Source of the DNA: the human T2T-CHM13v2.0 reference genome, Homo sapiens | Reading direction: 5' to 3' (one strand) | Length of the DNA: 64,000 nucleotides | Assembly: GCF_009914755.1 (NCBI RefSeq) | Contig: NC_060931.1 | Notes under the pieces: model-generated | What the model was told of the DNA's origin: nothing | The model's input: only the letters and a program-made list of their open reading frames with translations | Databases searched by the model: none | In this document: piece after piece, positions 13,719-57,195 of the stretch | Layout of the letters: each line of letters opens with the position of its first letter | How positions within the stretch are numbered: the first letter of the stretch is position 1 | Position numbers and translations under genes: made by a program

Positions 13719-14510
13719 AGAAAAGAAAATGATGTAGGCCAAAGAGATTAATGCTTTGTCAGTTATTTGTATAAAGGTCACAGGTAAAACTGTTGGAGAA
13801 AAAAAAAAAATCTACAAAAGGAGACAACCTTCTCTTTCTATTTTATTCTCTTTCCTAACAAGTTCCTCTCTTTATCACTATGAAGTCTTACTTTACAGTG
13901 GTTCAAATTTAGCTTCCAATAAATGGACTAGTGACTTATGTCATATAAAGGTAGCATTAATATTTGTGGCCAGGATGAGGGGCTGGAGCACTAGTTGCCC
14001 TGTCTACTTCCTCTCCGTTATACACAAATTAAAGAGCAGACACCGGCAGGGTAAGCAGCTCCTGGATGCATTCCAATCCAGGTGCCACCACATGCAGCAG
14101 GAAGGTTACCTCATGCCATGGATCTCTCCCTACACTGGCCCTTTTCCCTAATATTAACAAGTTGCTTTCGGTAACTGGGGAACAAATCTGCAAGCATTAA
14201 AGATGGGAGGCTTTGTAGGGCACTCCATCCTGATGAACCCCCAAGTCAATCTGCCTGGGTTTGAATCCTAGTTGTAACACTAGCTATGCAATCTCAGGCA
14301 AGTAATTTTGACCTCTCTGGCCTGAACCTATCTAAGCTTGTACCTATTCAAGCTTACTTGGCCAGAAAACATACAATCTTTATCCAAACAAGGACTTTAC
14401 TGCAAAGCGTAAATGTGTCCCCCAAGTGCCTTTAGGCACTGTGTTTCTTTTTAATTGATTTTCAATTTATATATGAAATACTATTCTAATTCATAATTTG
14501 GGGATGTTTA

Positions 14511-34127: not shown

Positions 34128-34214
34128 GTAATTTCATCTGTGCCAAAGCCTCCAGAGGACAAGCCAGAAGATGTACATACAAGTCATCCATTAAAACAAA
34201 GAAGAAGAATATAG
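34128..34214 (+). CDS. RBM48: RBM48 exon 5 coding part, to stop
   Basis: tag|GTA ATT...ATA TAG, VISSVPKPPEDKPEDVHTSHPLKQRRRI*; total CDS 367 aa. Confidence 0.94.
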   Translation, partial: VISSVPKPPEDKPEDVHTSHPLKQRRRI

Positions 34215-34333
34215 AGTGCCAGCAGCAACTTAGTATTTTCTAAAAAGAACATTTATTATTTATTTTTAGCCTGTCATTTTAATTCTTCAAGAGATTTTAC
34301 TGCTGGTATTTTTTAATGCACTCCTCTTTGTAA

Positions 34334-34698
<365 letters not shown>

Positions 34699-34768
34699 TA
34701 ACATTATCTCTCATGTACAGTAATTATATGTAAATTAATTGAAGCAAATATGGAAACTTTACAATAGA

Positions 34769-34774
34769 AATAAA
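34769..34774 (+). terminator. RBM48: Probable RBM48 polyadenylation signal
   Basis: AATAAA ~555 nt after the stop codon. Confidence 0.65.
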
Positions 34775-34800
34775 GATAGGCAGCCAGCGTCTGTTTCCAA

Positions 34801-34884
34801 TTATAATACAAGTATTGAATGAACCATTGAAACACTAGAAGTCAGGATGTTTCCGAATGCCAGGGTTTCAAAATCAAGACAATT
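34801..34884 (-). pseudogene. Calaxin-like pseudogene probable exon 6 (terminal)
   Basis: tttttacttcatag|AAT, phase 0, NCLDFETLAFGNILTSSVSMVHSILVL* (cf. calaxin SQMEFEAQVF); similarity is short. Confidence 0.65.
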
Positions 34885-35390
34885 CTATGAAGTAAAAAGT
34901 AGATTAGCTATTAGAACAAAGCTGAAATTAGAACCTTATATGCTTTAAATAACTTTTAAGAATTTGCTTGACCTGTGGCAATCCAAAAATACATCAGTAT
35001 TTATAAATTCTAGACTTCTGTTACTACTTCTGGCATATCCACACTTTTTTCTGTCAGTGGATTACATAATTGGAAATTTCAGTACATCTAGACTGTCTCT
35101 ATTTTCTTTTTCTTTTTTTATTTTTAGTAGAGACAGGGTCTCACTGTGTTGCCCAGGCAGGTATTGAACTCCTGGGCTCAAGTGATTCACCCACCTCGGC
35201 CTCCCAAAGTACTAGGATTATGGGTGTGACCCACTGTGCCTGGCCATTTTCTTTACTGATAAAAATAACTTGAGAAGGTCCATACCGTGGTGTGTTGTTT
35301 TCATTTCTCCCTATCTTTAATGGCCTCTTGCCTAGTGGATTGAATTTGAACATACCAGTTAATAAGGTTCAATTTCAGCTATGATGTACT

Positions 35391-35753
35391 TGTAGCAGGA
35401 CGAGCTGCAGACAAAACCCCGCAGACACCAGGTTATAGAAAGAAGAGGCTTTATTCGGCCAGGAGCGTCGGCAGACTTGTGTCTCAAGAACCGTGCTCCC
35501 TGAAGAAAAAGTTCCTGGTCCTTTTAAGGGCTTACAACTGTAAGAGGGTCTGCGTGAAAGGGTTGTGATAGACGGAGCAAGTGATCTATAGGCAACACAT
35601 GGTTAGAGTTGGGGGGTTAATCTTTAACCTCAGGCCTGGTCAGTGGCGTCGGTTGGTTTTGCCACTGGCTCCATTCCTGTTGTTTTTCAGCTTTTACTCC
35701 CTCCTCCTCTTCAGAGATGGGAGACAGGAAGAGAAATGGCCTCTCTCCTCACA
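35391..35753 (-). mobile_element. ERV solo LTR (family not assigned)
   Basis: TG...CA termini; TGTAGCAGGACGAGC end typical of ERV1 LTRs; minus-strand AATAAA at ~35450. Confidence 0.75.
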
Positions 35754-36668
35754 CTGATCCAAATTAACTAGGATGGCTCCAAGTGGTAGATGGTACTAAC
35801 AGCAAGCTGCAGATAAGGAGGGTAGGCCCTACTTCCATGTGAGGTAATTAGATACAGTTTTTGCTGAAATCTCAGGTAAAGGATATATTAGAGACCTAAG
35901 CATAGAATTGGAAGGAGCAAATTGCTGTCTGGTTCAGGCTTCTCAGACTATAAGTTGCTATGATCTCCACCTCAGGATCTTGTTAAAATGCAGATTCTGG
36001 TGGTGGTGGTGGCCAGGGGCTGTGGGGAGGGAAAATGAGGAGTTACGGTTTAATGGGCATAGAATTTCAGTTTTGGAAGATGAAAAGAGTTCTAGAGATC
36101 TGTTGCATGACAAACGTTACCTGACAGTTAAGGAGAGGAGCTGCTAAATGGGTCGTGTGTTTCTGAATGGGTTCCTGATAGTCCTGTGACCATGCGGAAG
36201 CCAGCACTCCTCATCCCCACCAACATAATTCATCATGAGGAGAGACAGAAAGAAACCTTTGTGGTGTCAAGCAGCAAAACAAAACAAAAAGATTCAAATT
36301 AAGTTGGTTTGGGTGGGGCCTGAGATTCTGCATTTTTCCCAAGTCCCTAGGTGCTGCCAGTGCTGCTGGTGCACAGACCATCTTTGAATAGCAAGGCTCT
36401 AGATAACTGGGCTACAGATGAACTCTGGAAGCAGCTGAAGAACGGTTGGCTGTTCCATCCTAAGCAGTTACTCTGATCTAGTCCATTATGCTATATACTG
36501 TTTTCGCTCATCTCTTTTCAGATTGGAAGCCTGCCTTTTACACATTGCTTTTTACCACACGTTTCCAGAAAGTTAAAATGCGGGGTAGAGGGAATAAACT
36601 ACAGGGAGACAAATAAATTAAAGAGATGAGTTGAGGTGGATAAGGATAGCTTAATAACATGCAAGCTA

Positions 36669-37082
<414 letters not shown>

Positions 37083-37544
37083 TCAGAAAACTTTTGTCAG
37101 ATGCATACATGAAAAACCTTCATAAGCACAAAGTACTCTATGTCTCCAAAATTTTAAAAACATTGACAGCAATTGTATTGAAAGAGATCAAGTGTTCTAG
37201 CAGTTTGTGGTGTACTTGCTGAAACTCTATTCAGTGTTCTATCCCTTAAGCAAGCCAATATACCCTGGATTTGGTTTGGGAAATACACCATACTTACAGG
37301 AAACAGGAATTGTCTATTGCTAAAGAGGTTAAAAGCTCAATGGAAGTCTTGAATATAGTTACTGAAATAATCATGAATGTCTTCTTGGGGCCCAAATGCC
37401 AGGATGGGGCTGAACTCTCAATGATTGCCTTGACTTCAGCAGTGGGCTGCAGCCCAACAGAGGAGAGTGTCTAGCAAGTATTACTCTCTGACCCTTTAAA
37501 ATTTTTCCTGAATCTATATGGGCTATTGGCACTAGTAACTATAC

Positions 37545-37648
37545 ATTTGCTTCTGGTAAACATGGTCCAAACACCTCCAACAGAAGTCTGTCTTCTCTTA
37601 CTGTTTTTCAAAGTCTGCAAGCGATAGCTTGCCATCATTGTCATAATC
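37545..37648 (-). pseudogene. Calaxin-like pseudogene exon 5 (EF-hand; dead acceptor, frameshift)
   Basis: cctaa|GAT acceptor; 104 nt where 105 is needed; DYDNDGKLSLADFEK/xVREDRLLLEVFGPCLPEAN|gtatag. Confidence 0.9.
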
Positions 37649-38474
37649 TTAGGAAGATGTTTCTTGGTAAATACTAGTTTTAAATTTTGCATGGCAAATA
37701 GCTCTCTAGACTAAAAAAATTTTACCAAATAAAAGTTCACACTTCTGTAGACACCCTACATACATAAAAAATTATTTATTTACAGAGGCCACTTATTTTA
37801 TTTGTACTATTCTAATAGGCATACCTGAGTTACCCTAGATATATAAAATATAGCCCTGTCCCTAAAACACTTATACTCTAATTGGAGAAATAAGATAAAA
37901 ATTAGAGGAAGTCCATTATTATATGGCTACTTTATGATAAAATAAGTACAATAGGGCAATGATTTTCAAATTAATTTTTTTGTAGAATTTGTTCCACAAA
38001 GTATCTCTTACTTGGGAGCCCATCAGGTAAAAAGGGTAACAGTGAAGTTGCTCTGTTAAGGAGGAAGGCACTGGGAGTTATGGAAGTAACAGTTCTGAAG
38101 AAGACTTGCAGACCACTGCTGAACCTTTAAGGATGGTTGGGATAGGTAGAGAGGTGTGAGGAGGAGGTGCAGAAGAGTGGCCCACCTGAATTAAGACAGC
38201 AAATGGGTATAAATTAAGAAGACAGACCTGCCTGGAGTGAAGCATTCATGACAGGGATTATGAGAGACCAAGTATGTTGCGCAGGAGTAGCGGGTGAGAA
38301 TAGCATGTGTAGAGATTATGAATGCCTTTAACTGCTTAATTGGATTGGTTTCAACAGGTCCTTGTTTTTTCACTTCTGGGCCTAATTACATCAGGATTGC
38401 TGAGAGTCTAATCTAGAGAAAAGTTTGAGTAATTGTCAGAAAAAATTTACTCCATAACATTTTCTTTCAAAGGA

Positions 38475-43390
<4,916 letters not shown>

Positions 43391-43577
43391 AAAGAAGGGT
43401 GTGTGTGGTACTGGGAACATACTGTCTCTCAGGAAGGAATCTACCCTCAGCCCTAACAGGCCTAGTGAGTATATTTCCAAAAGAAGAGGATACTTTGGAG
43501 ACTGCATTAGCTGGATCTGAGACTCCAAAACCTCCCACCATCTGTTTCTTTCCTGAACTCCAAAGTAATACAGGTGA

Positions 43578-44028
<451 letters not shown>

Positions 44029-44127
44029 TGAATTATGCACCCCATTTTCTAGGGTGACCTTGGGTAAACCTTTCTGTATTTCAGTTTTCTCATTTGCAAA
44101 ATGGAGATAATAGTTTCTACTTCATAG

Positions 44128-45197
44128 TGATGGCAACAGCGGCCCATCTGGAGTGGCCATTGCAAAGGTGCCAGCTGCAGCAGGGAGGCGTAGCTGGGGC
44201 TGTGTGCGCTACATAGCAGGCAGGATCCCCACCCTCCTGGGCACAGCTGCCGCTGCCCAAGCCACAGCTGCGGACCCAGGCATCTCTGCACTCTTAGGGG
44301 CCGGGAAGGCCCCCCTTCCCCCCACAGGCTTGGAGATGCCTGCTCCCACTCTCTGACCTCTCCCTTCTCCTGGCACCTACTCCACAGGCTTGGAAGCACC
44401 TGCTGCCACTTCTGGCCTCTCGCTGCTCCGGCACCCATTCCAATCTTAGAGCAAAGTTGAGGCTGAGCCAGGGCACTGTCGCGACCTGGCCAGGTGTGCG
44501 CACACTCAGGGCAGTGCTGACACACCAGCCCCCTGCTGACTTGGCCCCCTCCGGACTTTGGGCACTGACTAGCATTGGAGAGAGGCCGAGGAGGTGCTGA
44601 AGGCAGTTCAGCGCTGGCCTGCAGGCACTCCTTGTCACCAACAACCTGGGCGCCATGAACAGCGGCAGGAGGCAGACAGGCTCTGGGGTGGAAAGGGGTG
44701 TGTCCTCAGTTTTGAAGAGAGAAGGAGAGAAGAGCTGCGGCCCTTCAGAGAGCCCAGACCTAGGAGCTCCCCAAGCCAGGGATGTGACACCCTGTTTGGG
44801 AATCTGTAGTTCCTGGCTTCTCCAAGCTTCTGGGCACCACCACATTCCCTGGTGCCAACTGTGGAAGCTGTTTGTGGTATACCTGGTCCAGCTGCAGCCT
44901 CACAGGGAGGTAGCGCTTGTGCCAGCACCTGGAGCTGCCCACCCCACCACAGCCAGTGTGCCTGTCTGTGCGCAGTGGCTGGACCCCATGGTCATTCACT
45001 CACACACCCTTTGCTGCTCTGAGCCTGACTCACCCTTGGCAGGCATGGGATTCAGGCCAGTAGCACAAGCCAAGCACAACCCTGCCAGGCCGAGTGGATG
45101 GAATGAGTCCAGTAGGCCTGAGCAAAACTTGGACAAAGGTGCCACTAGCCACAGAGGTTTCTGGCTGGCAAGGTGACACCCCAAGAATCCCATGACA
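44128..45197. mobile_element. ERV1 solo LTR (MER52-like) inserted in a MIR
   Basis: TG...CA termini, GC-rich ~1.07 kb, resembles MER52 as recalled; MIR-like sequence on both sides. Confidence 0.75.
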
Positions 45198-45988
45198 ATG
45201 AGGTTGTTTTGAGAATAAAATGAGTTCACGGCCAGGCGCAGTGGCTCACGCCTGTAATCCCAGCACTTTGGGAGGCCGAGGCGGGAGGATCATGAGGTCA
45301 GGAGTTCGAGACCAGCCTGGACAACATGGTGAAACCTCATCTCTACTAAAAATACAAAAATTAGCCGGGTGTGGTGGCACATGTAATCCAAGCTACTCAG
45401 GAGACTGAGGCAGGAGAATCCCTTGAACTCAGGAAGCGGAGGTTGCAGTGAGCCAAGATTGCACCATTGCACTCCAGCCTGGGTGACAGAGCGAGACTCT
45501 GTCTCAAAAATATATATATATATATATATAAAAATAAAATAAAATGAGTTCACAGATTAAAGCTCCCTGAAGGGTCCTGCATTTAGAAAGCACTCTAGAG
45601 GGGTCAACTATTTTTATTATTATGTTATTGTATTATAATGAATATGTAGGTGGATTGGAGGAGTTAGGTCATAAAGACAAAATAGAGTAGCATCCAATTG
45701 TACATGCATTGCATCTGGTCTCCCCCTAAACTAATGAGGTTTTACTGAGTAAAATTTTTAAAAATAACAAAATAAACATTCATTTTGTATAGTGATTCAT
45801 TTAGTTGCCCAGCTATTCTATAAATATTTGTTGAGCACCACTATCAGCCAGGCATTGTTCTAGGCAATAGTTAGGTCAGGAACAAACAAAAACCCCTGCA
45901 CTCATAAAGGCTGCATTCATTATGGAAGAAAAGAAATCATTTCCTTAGCTTTATCTAACAAAAATGAATTGTAATTTTTCATTCTTAC

Positions 45989-46139
45989 CATTTTCTACAG
46001 TGTTATATCTACCGATTCTTTAATTCCTTCATCAGTCTCTTCTTCAGATGACTGTTGGTGTAGACTGTTCTTCAACATGTCAAATATTTGCTCTCAAGAA
46101 ATGTAACCATCTCCATTCAAATAATAAACTTGAAACAGA
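45989..46139 (-). pseudogene. Calaxin-like pseudogene exon 4 (EF-hand; frameshift and 2 stops)
   Basis: 151 nt where 152 is needed; CF/QVYYLNGDGYIS*EQIFDMLKNSLHQQSSEEETDEGIKESVDITL*KM|gtaag. Confidence 0.92.
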
Positions 46140-47993: not shown

Positions 47994-48098
47994 ACTTGAG
48001 CTTTTCTTCATACGTTCCTTGAAGAAACACTGATAATCCTTTAACCCACTCTTTTACTTTTATGTAGTTATCATGGTCTTTGTCAAATGCAAAAAACA
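47994..48098 (-). pseudogene. Calaxin-like pseudogene exon 3 (EF-hand)
   Basis: cag|TG TTT...AAG T|gtaaga, 105 nt, [35 protein letters not shown]; intact. Confidence 0.92.
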
Positions 48099-50600: not shown

Positions 50601-50756
50601 CCCTATTCATCAACATGTCATCAGTCATTCCTAATACATTGTGCAGGACCCCTCGAAAAGCGTTACGATCTAGCCCAGTGTTTCCAAATCTTCCATCAGC
50701 TCTTCCCACTAAGCTGTGGAAAAGTCTTATGAGACACTCTAGCTCACTTTTTTTGG
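50601..50756 (-). pseudogene. Calaxin-like pseudogene exon 2
   Basis: cag|CC AAA; KKSELECLIRLFHSLVG...GLDRNAFRGVLHNVLGMTDDMLMNR; donor reads G|ataaga (GT>AT). Confidence 0.92.
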
Positions 50757-55767: not shown

Positions 55768-55825
55768 AGTTCTTGACAGTTTCACTGATGGATTCTACCA
55801 GTTTCTTCAGAGCCTTCTGGTCCAT
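55768..55825 (-). pseudogene. Calaxin-like pseudogene exon 1
   Basis: gacATGG start; MDQKALKKLVESISETVKN plus T|gtaagt, 58 nt (cf. calaxin MNRKKLQKLTDTLTKNCKH). Confidence 0.85.
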
Positions 55826-55934: not shown

Positions 55935-55948
55935 GTGACCATGGCAAC
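55935..55948. promoter_or_regulatory. RFX X-box upstream of the calaxin-like pseudogene
   Basis: GTGACCATGGCAAC matches GTNRCC-N(0-3)-RGYAAC; extra half site CCCAGCAAC at 55951-55959; 110 bp from the ATG. Confidence 0.75.
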
Positions 55949-57195
55949 ATCCCAGCAACCAAACACAGAAGGTTCTCAAGTAACTGGAAAAGTATGAAAT
56001 GTTTGCTACCACTCCGAATATGGTAATTTCATTAATGTTTCTGTGATCTAAAAATTCATTATTTTCTGAGACAGGGTCTTGCTCTGCCACATCGCCTAGG
56101 ATGCAGTGCAGTGGTGCCATCTCAGCTCAATGCAACTTCCACCTCCTGGGGCTCAAGCAATCCTCCCACCTCAGCCTCGTGAGTATCTGGGATTACAGAC
56201 ATGCACCACCACACCTGGTTTATCTTTTGCATTTTTTGTAGAGATGGGATTTTGCCATGTTGCCCAGGCTGGTCTCGAATTCCTGGGCTCAAGCGATCCA
56301 CCCACCTCCACCTCCCTAAGTACTGGAATTACAGGCCTGAGCCACCGTGCCCGGCCTATTTTTATTTTTTAGACAGGGTCTTGCTGTGTCACACTGCCCA
56401 GGCTAAAGTGTAGTGGTACAATCATAGCTCACTGCAGCCTCAGCTTCCCAGGCTCAATCCACCCTCCATCTCAGCCTCCCAAGTAGTTGGGACTGCAGGC
56501 ACGAGCCACCACACCCAGCTAACGTGATTTAAAAATTTATAGCAATTCCAACATTTATCTTTTCTTTGGGGCTAAACACCACTTCAAGTGGTATTTGATA
56601 CCATTTATACTCCTTCAGCACCAACAGAACAGTTGAAAACATATTTGAACACATAATAACTAAATAAGTTACAAATACCTTATTAAGCTGGAAGTAATTT
56701 CCCAGGCTATCAGCAGCTCCTTCAAAGGTTACAACCTCCTCCAAACTCTAACCAAGCACCCTTTTATGATATCCAAACAGAAGCTTCAATCTGGGAGCTT
56801 CTAGAAAAATTAAAAACTCACTTTTACCCCTCCAACTTTGATTGGGTTGACTGGTAGGATAACATGGTGTGACTATGCCAAAGCTGACTAAAATGTCAAC
56901 TGTTCTAACTTGTTGATTGTAAAATCCTGGTAGAGAGAACAAACATGTCATCTATGTCTGCTGGCCTTCACTGTGGTAAGGCAAGAAAATGTATTAAAGT
57001 GATTTTTAGAATTTAGGACACTAGATTCTTACTAACTTTTAAATGAAACATAAAACCAAAATTTAAAATACAGCAAAGGCTGGGCGTGGTGGCTTATGCC
57101 TGTAATCTCAGCAGTTTGGGAAACTGAGGTGGGAGGACTGCTTGAGCCCAGGAGTTTGAGACCAGCCTGGGTAACATAGGGAGATCCTGTCTCTA

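What the first reader, a model, noticed from the sequence alone, without database searches (positions are those of the whole stretch)
55935..55959. Intact RFX X-box in the promoter of the dead ciliary gene
Seen: GTGACCATGGCAAC, a perfect X-box match, plus a half site, 110 bp upstream of an ATG in strong Kozak context whose exon keeps a consensus gtaagt donor. Established: RFX2/RFX3 drive motile-cilia and spermatid genes through proximal X-boxes. This independently supports the calaxin-like identity. Inference: the promoter may still fire in testis or ciliated epithelium, producing a lncRNA or short peptide, or act as an enhancer for neighbouring genes.
Basis: partly seen in the sequence, partly recalled or inferred. 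Interest (0 to 1): 0.7.

Follow-up and report, generated by a model that had tools for sequence, protein, structure and literature searches.

The report
Surviving cilia switch of dead gene
A short DNA motif matching the binding site of RFX, the main switch for cilia and sperm-tail genes, sits intact in front of a broken, unannotated human copy of the ciliary gene calaxin; it is likely that gene's old promoter, likely surviving as a leftover rather than because it is still needed, while other mammals keep the gene whole as a little-studied, likely sperm-cell calcium sensor.

Summary
The motif is real (55935-55948) and not chance. It lies 110 bp upstream of exon 1 of a six-exon minus-strand pseudogene that RefSeq does not list. 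This is the orthologue of mouse 1700109H08Rik, a therian duplicate of calaxin (CLXN), with six disabling lesions in human.

Orthologue protein models that read through the box show it is conserved: 39 of 40 determinable bases in 7 non-anthropoid mammals, against 383 of 581 in the neighbouring spacer. CLXN has a similar box 146 bp upstream of its ATG. So this is very likely the ancestral RFX promoter element.

Its intactness in human is not evidence of present function: neutral survival since the gene began to decay has P of about 0.4-0.75. Mouse data point to germ cells, not ciliated epithelium. The orthologue falls about tenfold in Rfx2-null testis, but no RFX peak was listed in P21 germ cells or ependymal cells. 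A macaque model spliced to a non-orthologous exon hints that the dead locus is still transcribed in monkeys. No human activity data were reachable, and nothing supports an enhancer role. Verdict: an ordinary X-box on an apparently undescribed gene loss.

The parts
55935..55948 (.). RFX X-box, one optimal and one imperfect half
   Evidence: conserved in 8 of 9 species models that cover it, buffalo implies one change at 55948
55954..55959 (.). Second X-box half site
   Evidence: 5 of 5 overlapping codons identical in buffalo and sea lion models
55949..55995 (-). Conserved upstream promoter block; holds the half site, a forkhead-like TGTTTG at 55965 and a two-unit heat-shock-like element at 55975-55968
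   Evidence: 48 of 53 determinable bases kept, seen in buffalo and sea lion only; motif labels are simple consensus matches
55940..55942 (-). ATG inside the X-box, in frame with exon 1 in human (39 extra codons) but out of frame in carnivores and buffalo; not a conserved start
55768..55825 (-). Exon 1 coding part (58 nt), strong Kozak ATG, intact GTAAGT donor
   Evidence: same length and phase as CLXN exon 1
50601..50756 (-). Exon 2 (156 nt); donor mutated to AT
   Evidence: calaxin match E 1e-12
47994..48098 (-). Exon 3 (105 nt), EF-hand, splice sites intact
45989..46139 (-). Exon 4 (151 nt, 152 in CLXN): 1-bp deletion near 46131, TGA at 46096, TAG at 45997
37545..37648 (-). Exon 5 (104 nt, 105 in CLXN): acceptor reads AA, 1-bp deletion near 37603; antisense to the RBM48 3' UTR
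34834..34884 (-). Exon 6 coding start, intact acceptor; antisense to the RBM48 3' UTR
   Evidence: tblastn of orthologue C-termini, 76% identity
35970..36019 (-). Non-orthologous exon to which the macaque model splices exon 2; acceptor intact in human
56822..56970 (-). 149-nt cryptic exon upstream of the X-box, with acceptor and donor, used by the squirrel-monkey model to bypass exon 1

Best explanation
The motif is a conserved X-box in front of exon 1 of a broken calaxin duplicate, and is likely the core of that gene's ancestral promoter, where an RFX dimer (likely RFX2 in spermatocytes and spermatids) would switch on a calcium-binding, probably flagellar, protein; in human it likely survives as an unselected leftover. 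Shown: motif, position, six-exon gene, six lesions, orthology, conservation of the box, a like box in CLXN. From papers: the mouse orthologue is germ-cell expressed and RFX2-dependent. Inferred: direct RFX binding, a start site close to the box, inheritance of the box from the pre-duplication promoter, and neutral survival in human. The promoter lacks a CpG island, so it would be tissue-restricted. I put about even odds on some residual testis transcription. That would give an RNA unable to make calaxin; at most a 75-residue piece without the EF-hands of exons 3-5, if exon 2 reads through its dead donor.
For: Non-chance motif and position. Box bases kept 39 of 40 in 7 non-anthropoids against 383 of 581 in the spacer; with one species for each of four lineages, 24 of 25 against 155 of 236, binomial P 4e-4. 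CLXN box 146 bp upstream, same orientation; flanks 13 of 30 identical, reached by 51 of 5000 shuffles. Orthology: best human hit of the mouse protein is this locus, 69% against 55% for CLXN in exon 2; tree 100/99; dog models fuse the gene to PEX1. Mouse gene log2FC -3.30, P 2.7e-24 at P30 in Rfx2-null testis, with an RFX2-like profile; spermatocytes 9.46 against hepatocytes 4.71. Neutral survival P 0.42-0.75 for 2-6% divergence. CpG o/e 0.21 against 0.92 at CLXN.
Against: No RFX2 promoter peak for the mouse gene in P21 germ cells, and no change at P21; the P30 fall may follow from spermatid arrest. No RFX1/2/3 peak in ependymal cells. No rodent model covers the box, so its state in mouse is unknown. 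Buffalo implies a change at an outer G. The promoter-to-promoter alignment with CLXN is only borderline overall, 108 of 2000 shuffles. Conservation is read indirectly from predicted proteins, lineages are not independent, and frameshifts may depress the spacer figure. No human binding or expression data were seen.
Confidence: 0.7

Rival explanations
1. The promoter is still selected in human because it makes a useful testis lncRNA or short peptide, or acts as an enhancer or antisense regulator of RBM48, PEX1 or FAM133B.
For: Box, half site, Kozak ATG, exon 1 donor and exon 2 acceptor are all intact while the lesions lie from the exon 2 donor onward. The macaque model joins exon 2 to a non-orthologous exon 14.6 kb away, which suggests RNA support. 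Exons 5-6 overlap the RBM48 3' UTR in antisense.
Against: Intactness is expected neutrally, P 0.42-0.75. Exons 1-2 carry changes at conserved residues shared with macaque (F22S, I58V, F63L). RefSeq lists no transcript or element here (hub annotation). Human cannot use the macaque splice because the exon 2 donor is AT. In mouse ependymal cells the only RFX peaks assigned to Fam133b lie 46.5 and 180 kb upstream.
Confidence: 0.1
2. The block is a real germ-cell promoter but RFX does not drive it directly; another factor (heat-shock, forkhead or MYB family) uses the conserved bases and the RFX2 dependence is secondary.
For: ChIP 'no' in both mouse studies. The mouse gene is among the top HSF1-bound, heat-induced spermatocyte genes, and a conserved GAAnnTTC lies at 55975-55968. 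The imperfect half fails 4 of 5 published patterns.
Against: The best-kept bases are those of the X-box. CLXN, a proven RFX1/2/3 target, has a box with an equally imperfect half. ChIP was done at P21, before the gene was affected, and most P30-down genes also lack a peak (111 direct targets among some 650 down genes).
Confidence: 0.14
3. What is conserved is a start codon: the ATG in the middle of the motif (gccATGg) begins an N-terminally longer protein, and the X-box look is incidental.
For: The ATG at 55942 is in frame with exon 1 in human; 6 species models start there (macaque, marmoset, alpaca, hippo, goat, tamandua).
Against: The frame is broken in sea lion, stoat and buffalo; human has compensating indels relative to macaque; spacer codons are only 162 of 341 identical. 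51 of 102 placental clusters start at the calaxin-equivalent Met. Bases are kept in all three frames and 5' of the ATG, as expected of a DNA motif. The extension matches no Pfam family and no calaxin structure entry.
Confidence: 0.04
4. A chance match in intergenic DNA.
For: The genome holds up to 1211 strand hits to the pattern.
Against: P at most 2e-4 for this position, cross-species conservation and a counterpart in the paralogue.
Confidence: 0.02

Closest known systems
RFX1/2/3 X-box promoters of motile-cilia and spermatid genes, e.g. Efcab1/CLXN
   Same: 14-bp imperfect inverted repeat near the gene start; CLXN has its box 146 bp upstream of the ATG in the same orientation; Efcab1 and the mouse orthologue both fall about tenfold in Rfx2-null testis.
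   Different: No CpG island or GC box here; no RFX peak listed for the mouse orthologue, whereas Efcab1 has peaks in testis and ependymal cells; the downstream human gene is dead.
Calaxin (CLXN/EFCAB1/ODAD5), outer-dynein-arm docking complex subunit
   Same: Same exon lengths and phases 58, 156, 105, 152, 105; 110 of 188 residues identical for the human relic and 114 of 192 for the mouse orthologue; E 4e-76 to human calaxin in the PDB.
   Different: A separate therian clade; seemingly germ-cell restricted in mouse; function untested (listed 'Unknown' in PMC8156796); broken in human.
Human unitary pseudogenes of testis and cilia genes (CETN4, TEX21, TSSK5, CYCT, ADAM3/5 in PMC2864566)
   Same: Intact in mouse and most placentals, disabled in place in human with introns kept; donor GT-to-AT loss as described for MUP.
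   Different: Not in Table 1 or the supplement of that paper, nor in the supplements of PMC10195156 and PMC6886504 that could be searched; no RefSeq row.

Membership tests
RFX X-box promoter element | Match to the inverted-repeat consensus RTNRCC-N1-3-RGYAAC | tested here: met
   fails four other patterns from the same paper
RFX X-box promoter element | Within about 500 bp of the transcription start (PMC5838959) | tested here: inconclusive
   110 bp from the ATG of the first coding exon; the start site itself is not mapped
RFX X-box promoter element | Conserved in sequence and position across species | tested here: met
   39 of 40 determinable bases in 7 non-anthropoids, 8 of 8 in 2 monkeys; indirect, no rodent covered
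RFX X-box promoter element | Target gene depends on an RFX factor | tested here: met
   published mouse data: log2FC -3.30 at P30 in Rfx2-null testis; may be indirect; not listed in ependymal cells
RFX X-box promoter element | RFX protein bound at the site in vivo | tested here: inconclusive
   no peak listed for the mouse orthologue in P21 germ cells or ependymal cells; mouse box state unknown; no human or round-spermatid data seen
RFX X-box promoter element | Mutating the box lowers transcription | not testable with these tools
   needs a reporter or genome edit
Calaxin family | Sequence closer to calaxin than to other calcium sensors | tested here: met
   E 1e-54 to 1e-77 for calaxins, 5e-19 or weaker for the rest; exon 2 hits only calaxins
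Calaxin family | Shared exon-intron structure | tested here: met
   exon 6 located
Calaxin family | Binds outer-arm dynein or its docking complex and calcium | not tested
   EF-hand families found in the mouse and lemur proteins; no binding test or complex prediction was run
Unitary pseudogene | Disabling lesions at the ancestral locus | tested here: met
   two splice sites, two frameshifts, two stops
Unitary pseudogene | Intact orthologue elsewhere and no intact orthologous copy in human | tested here: met
   50 full-length placental models; among 14 human matches to the mouse protein the closest are this locus and CLXN
Transcribed pseudogene / lncRNA from a gene-loss relic | RNA made from the old promoter in human | not testable with these tools
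   only an indirect sign in macaque

The most novel reading that the evidence does not exclude
Therian mammals carry a second, sperm-specific calaxin driven by this RFX2 promoter. It could explain why Efcab1-null mice stay fertile. Monkeys and apes lost the protein but kept the promoter firing, and in human it now yields a selected testis RNA (or a 75-residue peptide) running toward the antisense strand of RBM48.
Probability: 0.08. Interest if true: 0.7.

Novelty: new member of a known kind. Interest (0 to 1): 0.36.

Why it matters
The box itself is textbook. Its value is as a pointer to an apparently undescribed gene: a mammalian second calaxin. In mouse testis it is more abundant than calaxin (base mean 369 against 56), it depends on RFX2, and it decayed in the monkey-ape line. 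That gives a direct test of why calaxin-null mice are unexpectedly fertile (PMC6586612), and a warning that mouse may model human CLXN loss poorly in sperm, since humans would have no spare copy (inference). It also adds a likely unitary pseudogene missing from RefSeq and from the loss lists checked, and a clean case for asking how long a tissue-specific promoter outlives its gene.

Tried and rejected
Conserved N-terminal extension from the ATG in the box: rejected, frame not conserved. Repeat-derived motif: rejected, single-copy. A-MYB-like CAGTTA at 55986: not kept in buffalo or sea lion. TATA, GC-box and CRE patterns: none in 220 nt upstream. PDB search with exon 1 plus extension: only chance DARPin-type hits, E 0.07 or worse. 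My first exon boundaries for exons 3-5 were wrong and were corrected; the exon 5 length of 105 printed should read 104. Literature: 1700109H08Rik is in 6 papers, none about the gene by their titles (2 opened). Calaxin-like, EFCAB1-like, CLXNP1 and LOC77036 gave no paper, and EFCAB1P one unrelated listing that I did not open. Searches gave no paper on this locus. The supplement of PMC4745085 could not be read, so a second Rfx2-null data set stays unchecked. The supplements of PMC5838959 had no entry for the locus or its neighbours. Earlier scan findings were not available. No structure or complex prediction was run, as the question concerns DNA.

Full report
Observation. The 14-mer GTGACCATGGCAAC lies at 55935-55948 and the half site AGCAAC at 55954-55959. 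On the minus strand an ATG at 55825 in the context gacATGg opens a 58-nt coding exon ending AACT|GTAAGT. The match is unique in the window, with 0.03 expected. The genome has 620+591 strand hits against 47+39 for the reversed control, giving at most 2e-4 for a site within 500 bp of a given ATG. The surrounding 181 bp are single-copy. The site is not 'perfect': it fits RTNRCC-N1-3-RGYAAC but none of the four other patterns of PMC2375033 (passages seen).

The gene behind it. Six minus-strand exons run from 55825 to about 34834. Exon 2 hits only calaxins in the PDB, and in the human genome only itself and a chr8 locus whose translation matches human calaxin, CLXN. Exon lengths and phases equal those of CLXN except for two 1-bp deletions, so the copy arose by genomic duplication, not retroposition. 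Lesions: exon 2 donor reads AT, 1-bp deletion near 46131, TGA at 46096, TAG at 45997, exon 5 acceptor reads AA, 1-bp deletion near 37603. Full-length 'calaxin-like' models exist across placentals, including lemur and mouse 1700109H08Rik (P0060). The best human match of the mouse protein is this locus. A tree of 31 chosen rows out of 132 proteins plus the two human ones puts the relic in a placental clade (100/99), sister to two marsupial proteins (100/99), with human CLXN among sauropsid calaxins (midpoint root, one mammalian CLXN only). This suggests duplication before the marsupial-placental split. Dog models fuse the gene to PEX1 exons that map to this window, confirming synteny.

Conservation of the box. 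No other genome could be read, so I used gene models that begin upstream of the true start and read through the promoter. Of 102 placental clusters, 51 start at the calaxin-equivalent Met, 23 extend 5' within exon 1, and 28 have other starts. I used 13 of the 23; the 10 left out are cat-family duplicates that start downstream of the box. Nine of the 13 cover the box, in three frames: MVT in macaque, marmoset, alpaca, hippo, goat and tamandua; MLPWSH in sea lion and stoat; YCHGH in buffalo. Codons over the box are identical to human in 23 of 24 cases in seven non-anthropoids, against 162 of 341 in the spacer. At bases fixed by the residue the figures are 39 of 40 against 383 of 581, and 48 of 53 in the 47 bp upstream; forced start Mets were excluded. 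With one species per lineage, 24 of 25 against 155 of 236 gives P 4e-4. The one miss is buffalo, at the outer G (55948). Caveats: predicted proteins, related lineages, frameshift noise in the spacer, and no rodent. Because the frame from the ATG in the box to the main ATG differs between lineages, the conserved thing is DNA, not a longer protein.

The paralogue's promoter. CLXN has GTTGCCTTGGCTAC 146 bp upstream of its ATG in the same orientation, and the two boxes align. The best local alignment of the two upstream regions is that box, but 108 of 2000 shuffles reach its score. With the boxes fixed, the 15-bp flanks share 13 of 30 bases, reached by 51 of 5000 shuffles. Common descent of the box is likely, not proven. 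CLXN sits in a CpG island (GC 0.66, o/e 0.92); this promoter does not (0.41, 0.21).

Published mouse data. PMC4498915 (passages, section 11 and supplement rows seen): 1700109H08Rik is down at P30 in Rfx2-null testis, log2FC -3.30, P 2.7e-24, base mean 369, with an RFX2-like profile, but ChIP 'no' and no change at P21. Efcab1 is down -3.29, base mean 56, ChIP 'yes'. ChIP was on P21 germ cells, and only 111 down genes had a promoter peak, against 106 down at P21 and 640 at P30. PMC7498320 (passages; supplement searched, cut when stored): Efcab1 appears in the expression table and in the RFX1, 2 and 3 peak tables; the orthologue appears nowhere. PMC3711851 (one table passage): expression 9.46 in spermatocytes against 4.71 in hepatocytes, HSF1-bound and heat-induced. 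So the gene is a germ-cell gene that needs RFX2; direct binding is unproven, and ciliated epithelium is not supported.

Does intactness mean life? At 116 columns at least 90% conserved in 50 intact models (cats over-represented), the human relic differs at 11 (8 substitutions, 1 stop, 2 frameshifts); intact orthologues differ at a median 2.8%, maximum 6.5%. Three of the changes (F22S, I58V, F63L) are shared with the macaque model, which is itself truncated. Marmoset and squirrel-monkey models are partial; lemur is whole. Decay therefore probably began before the human-macaque split. The excess implies roughly 2-3% nucleotide divergence (my estimate); even at 6% a 14-bp motif survives with P 0.42, and at 2% with P 0.75. 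The intact box is thus no evidence of selection. One sign of residual activity: the macaque model joins exon 2 in phase to a non-orthologous exon mapping to 36019-35970, behind an intact acceptor. Homology-based prediction would not produce that, so RNA support is likely (inference). The squirrel-monkey model instead uses a 149-nt exon upstream of the box, a reminder that read-through from FAM133B, whose 3' end is 2.8 kb away on the same strand, could also feed RNA into this locus. A human exon 1-2 RNA reading through the dead donor would encode 75 residues.

Mechanism. Most likely an RFX dimer, RFX2 in spermatocytes and round spermatids, bound this box in a CpG-poor promoter and started transcription nearby, as for other RFX targets (PMC5838959, passages). 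That produced a second calaxin, which by homology would act on the outer-dynein-arm docking complex (PMC8754002, passages). In the monkey-ape line the protein decayed, and the short promoter has not yet been hit. Confidence 0.7. Selected human function 0.1, non-RFX control 0.14, coding start 0.04, chance 0.02.

Known or new. X-boxes and unitary pseudogenes are known kinds. I found no paper on this paralogue or its human loss in eight searches. It is absent from PMC2864566 (section 7 and supplement), from the main text of PMC2134963 (term search only, supplements not seen), from the supplement of PMC10195156 and from the searched supplements of PMC6886504 (two files not searched). Passages of PMC6586612 report fertile Efcab1-null mice and contain no 'paralog' or 'redundan'. 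Verdict: real, conserved, ordinary X-box; modest interest, carried by the lost gene rather than by the motif.

Noticed in passing
window 55975-55968 (-): Two-unit heat-shock-like element GAAnnTTC inside the conserved block, compatible with the buffalo and sea lion models; the mouse orthologue is reported HSF1-bound and heat-induced in spermatocytes. About 0.07 expected by chance per 220 nt.
   Followed up: partly
window 34834-37648 (-) against RBM48 34128-37758 (+): Exons 5 and 6 of the relic lie antisense within the long RBM48 3' UTR.
   Followed up: no
proteins P0025, P0027-P0031 (dog, jackal, wolf): Database models fuse the calaxin-like gene to PEX1, skipping PEX1's first exons: read-through transcripts or annotation artefacts across RBM48.
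   Followed up: partly
proteins P0091 (sheep), P0100 (Myotis): Models join a lysine/serine-rich N-terminus, which I recall as FAM133B (not tested), to exon 2 of the calaxin-like gene; possible read-through from FAM133B.
   Followed up: partly
window 36060-35990 (-): The macaque terminal exon begins in sequence that I recall as an old L1 3' end (not tested): possible exonisation of a repeat.
   Followed up: no
PDB 9cpc_1F: This calaxin chain is 262 residues long, 50 more at the N-terminus than the other mammalian entries; CLXN gene models may also be over-extended into the promoter.
   Followed up: no
window 14161-14175: A second X-box-like site with a 3-base spacer in a PEX1 intron.
   Followed up: no
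window 42000-45500: GC-rich stretch (0.46-0.66) inside intron 4 of the relic, partly repeat-masked, not matching any listed gene.
   Followed up: no
G000:C9:113769122-113769523: Intronless match to the mouse protein (38% over residues 65-195, one TGA): a possible processed pseudogene of an EF-hand gene.
   Followed up: no
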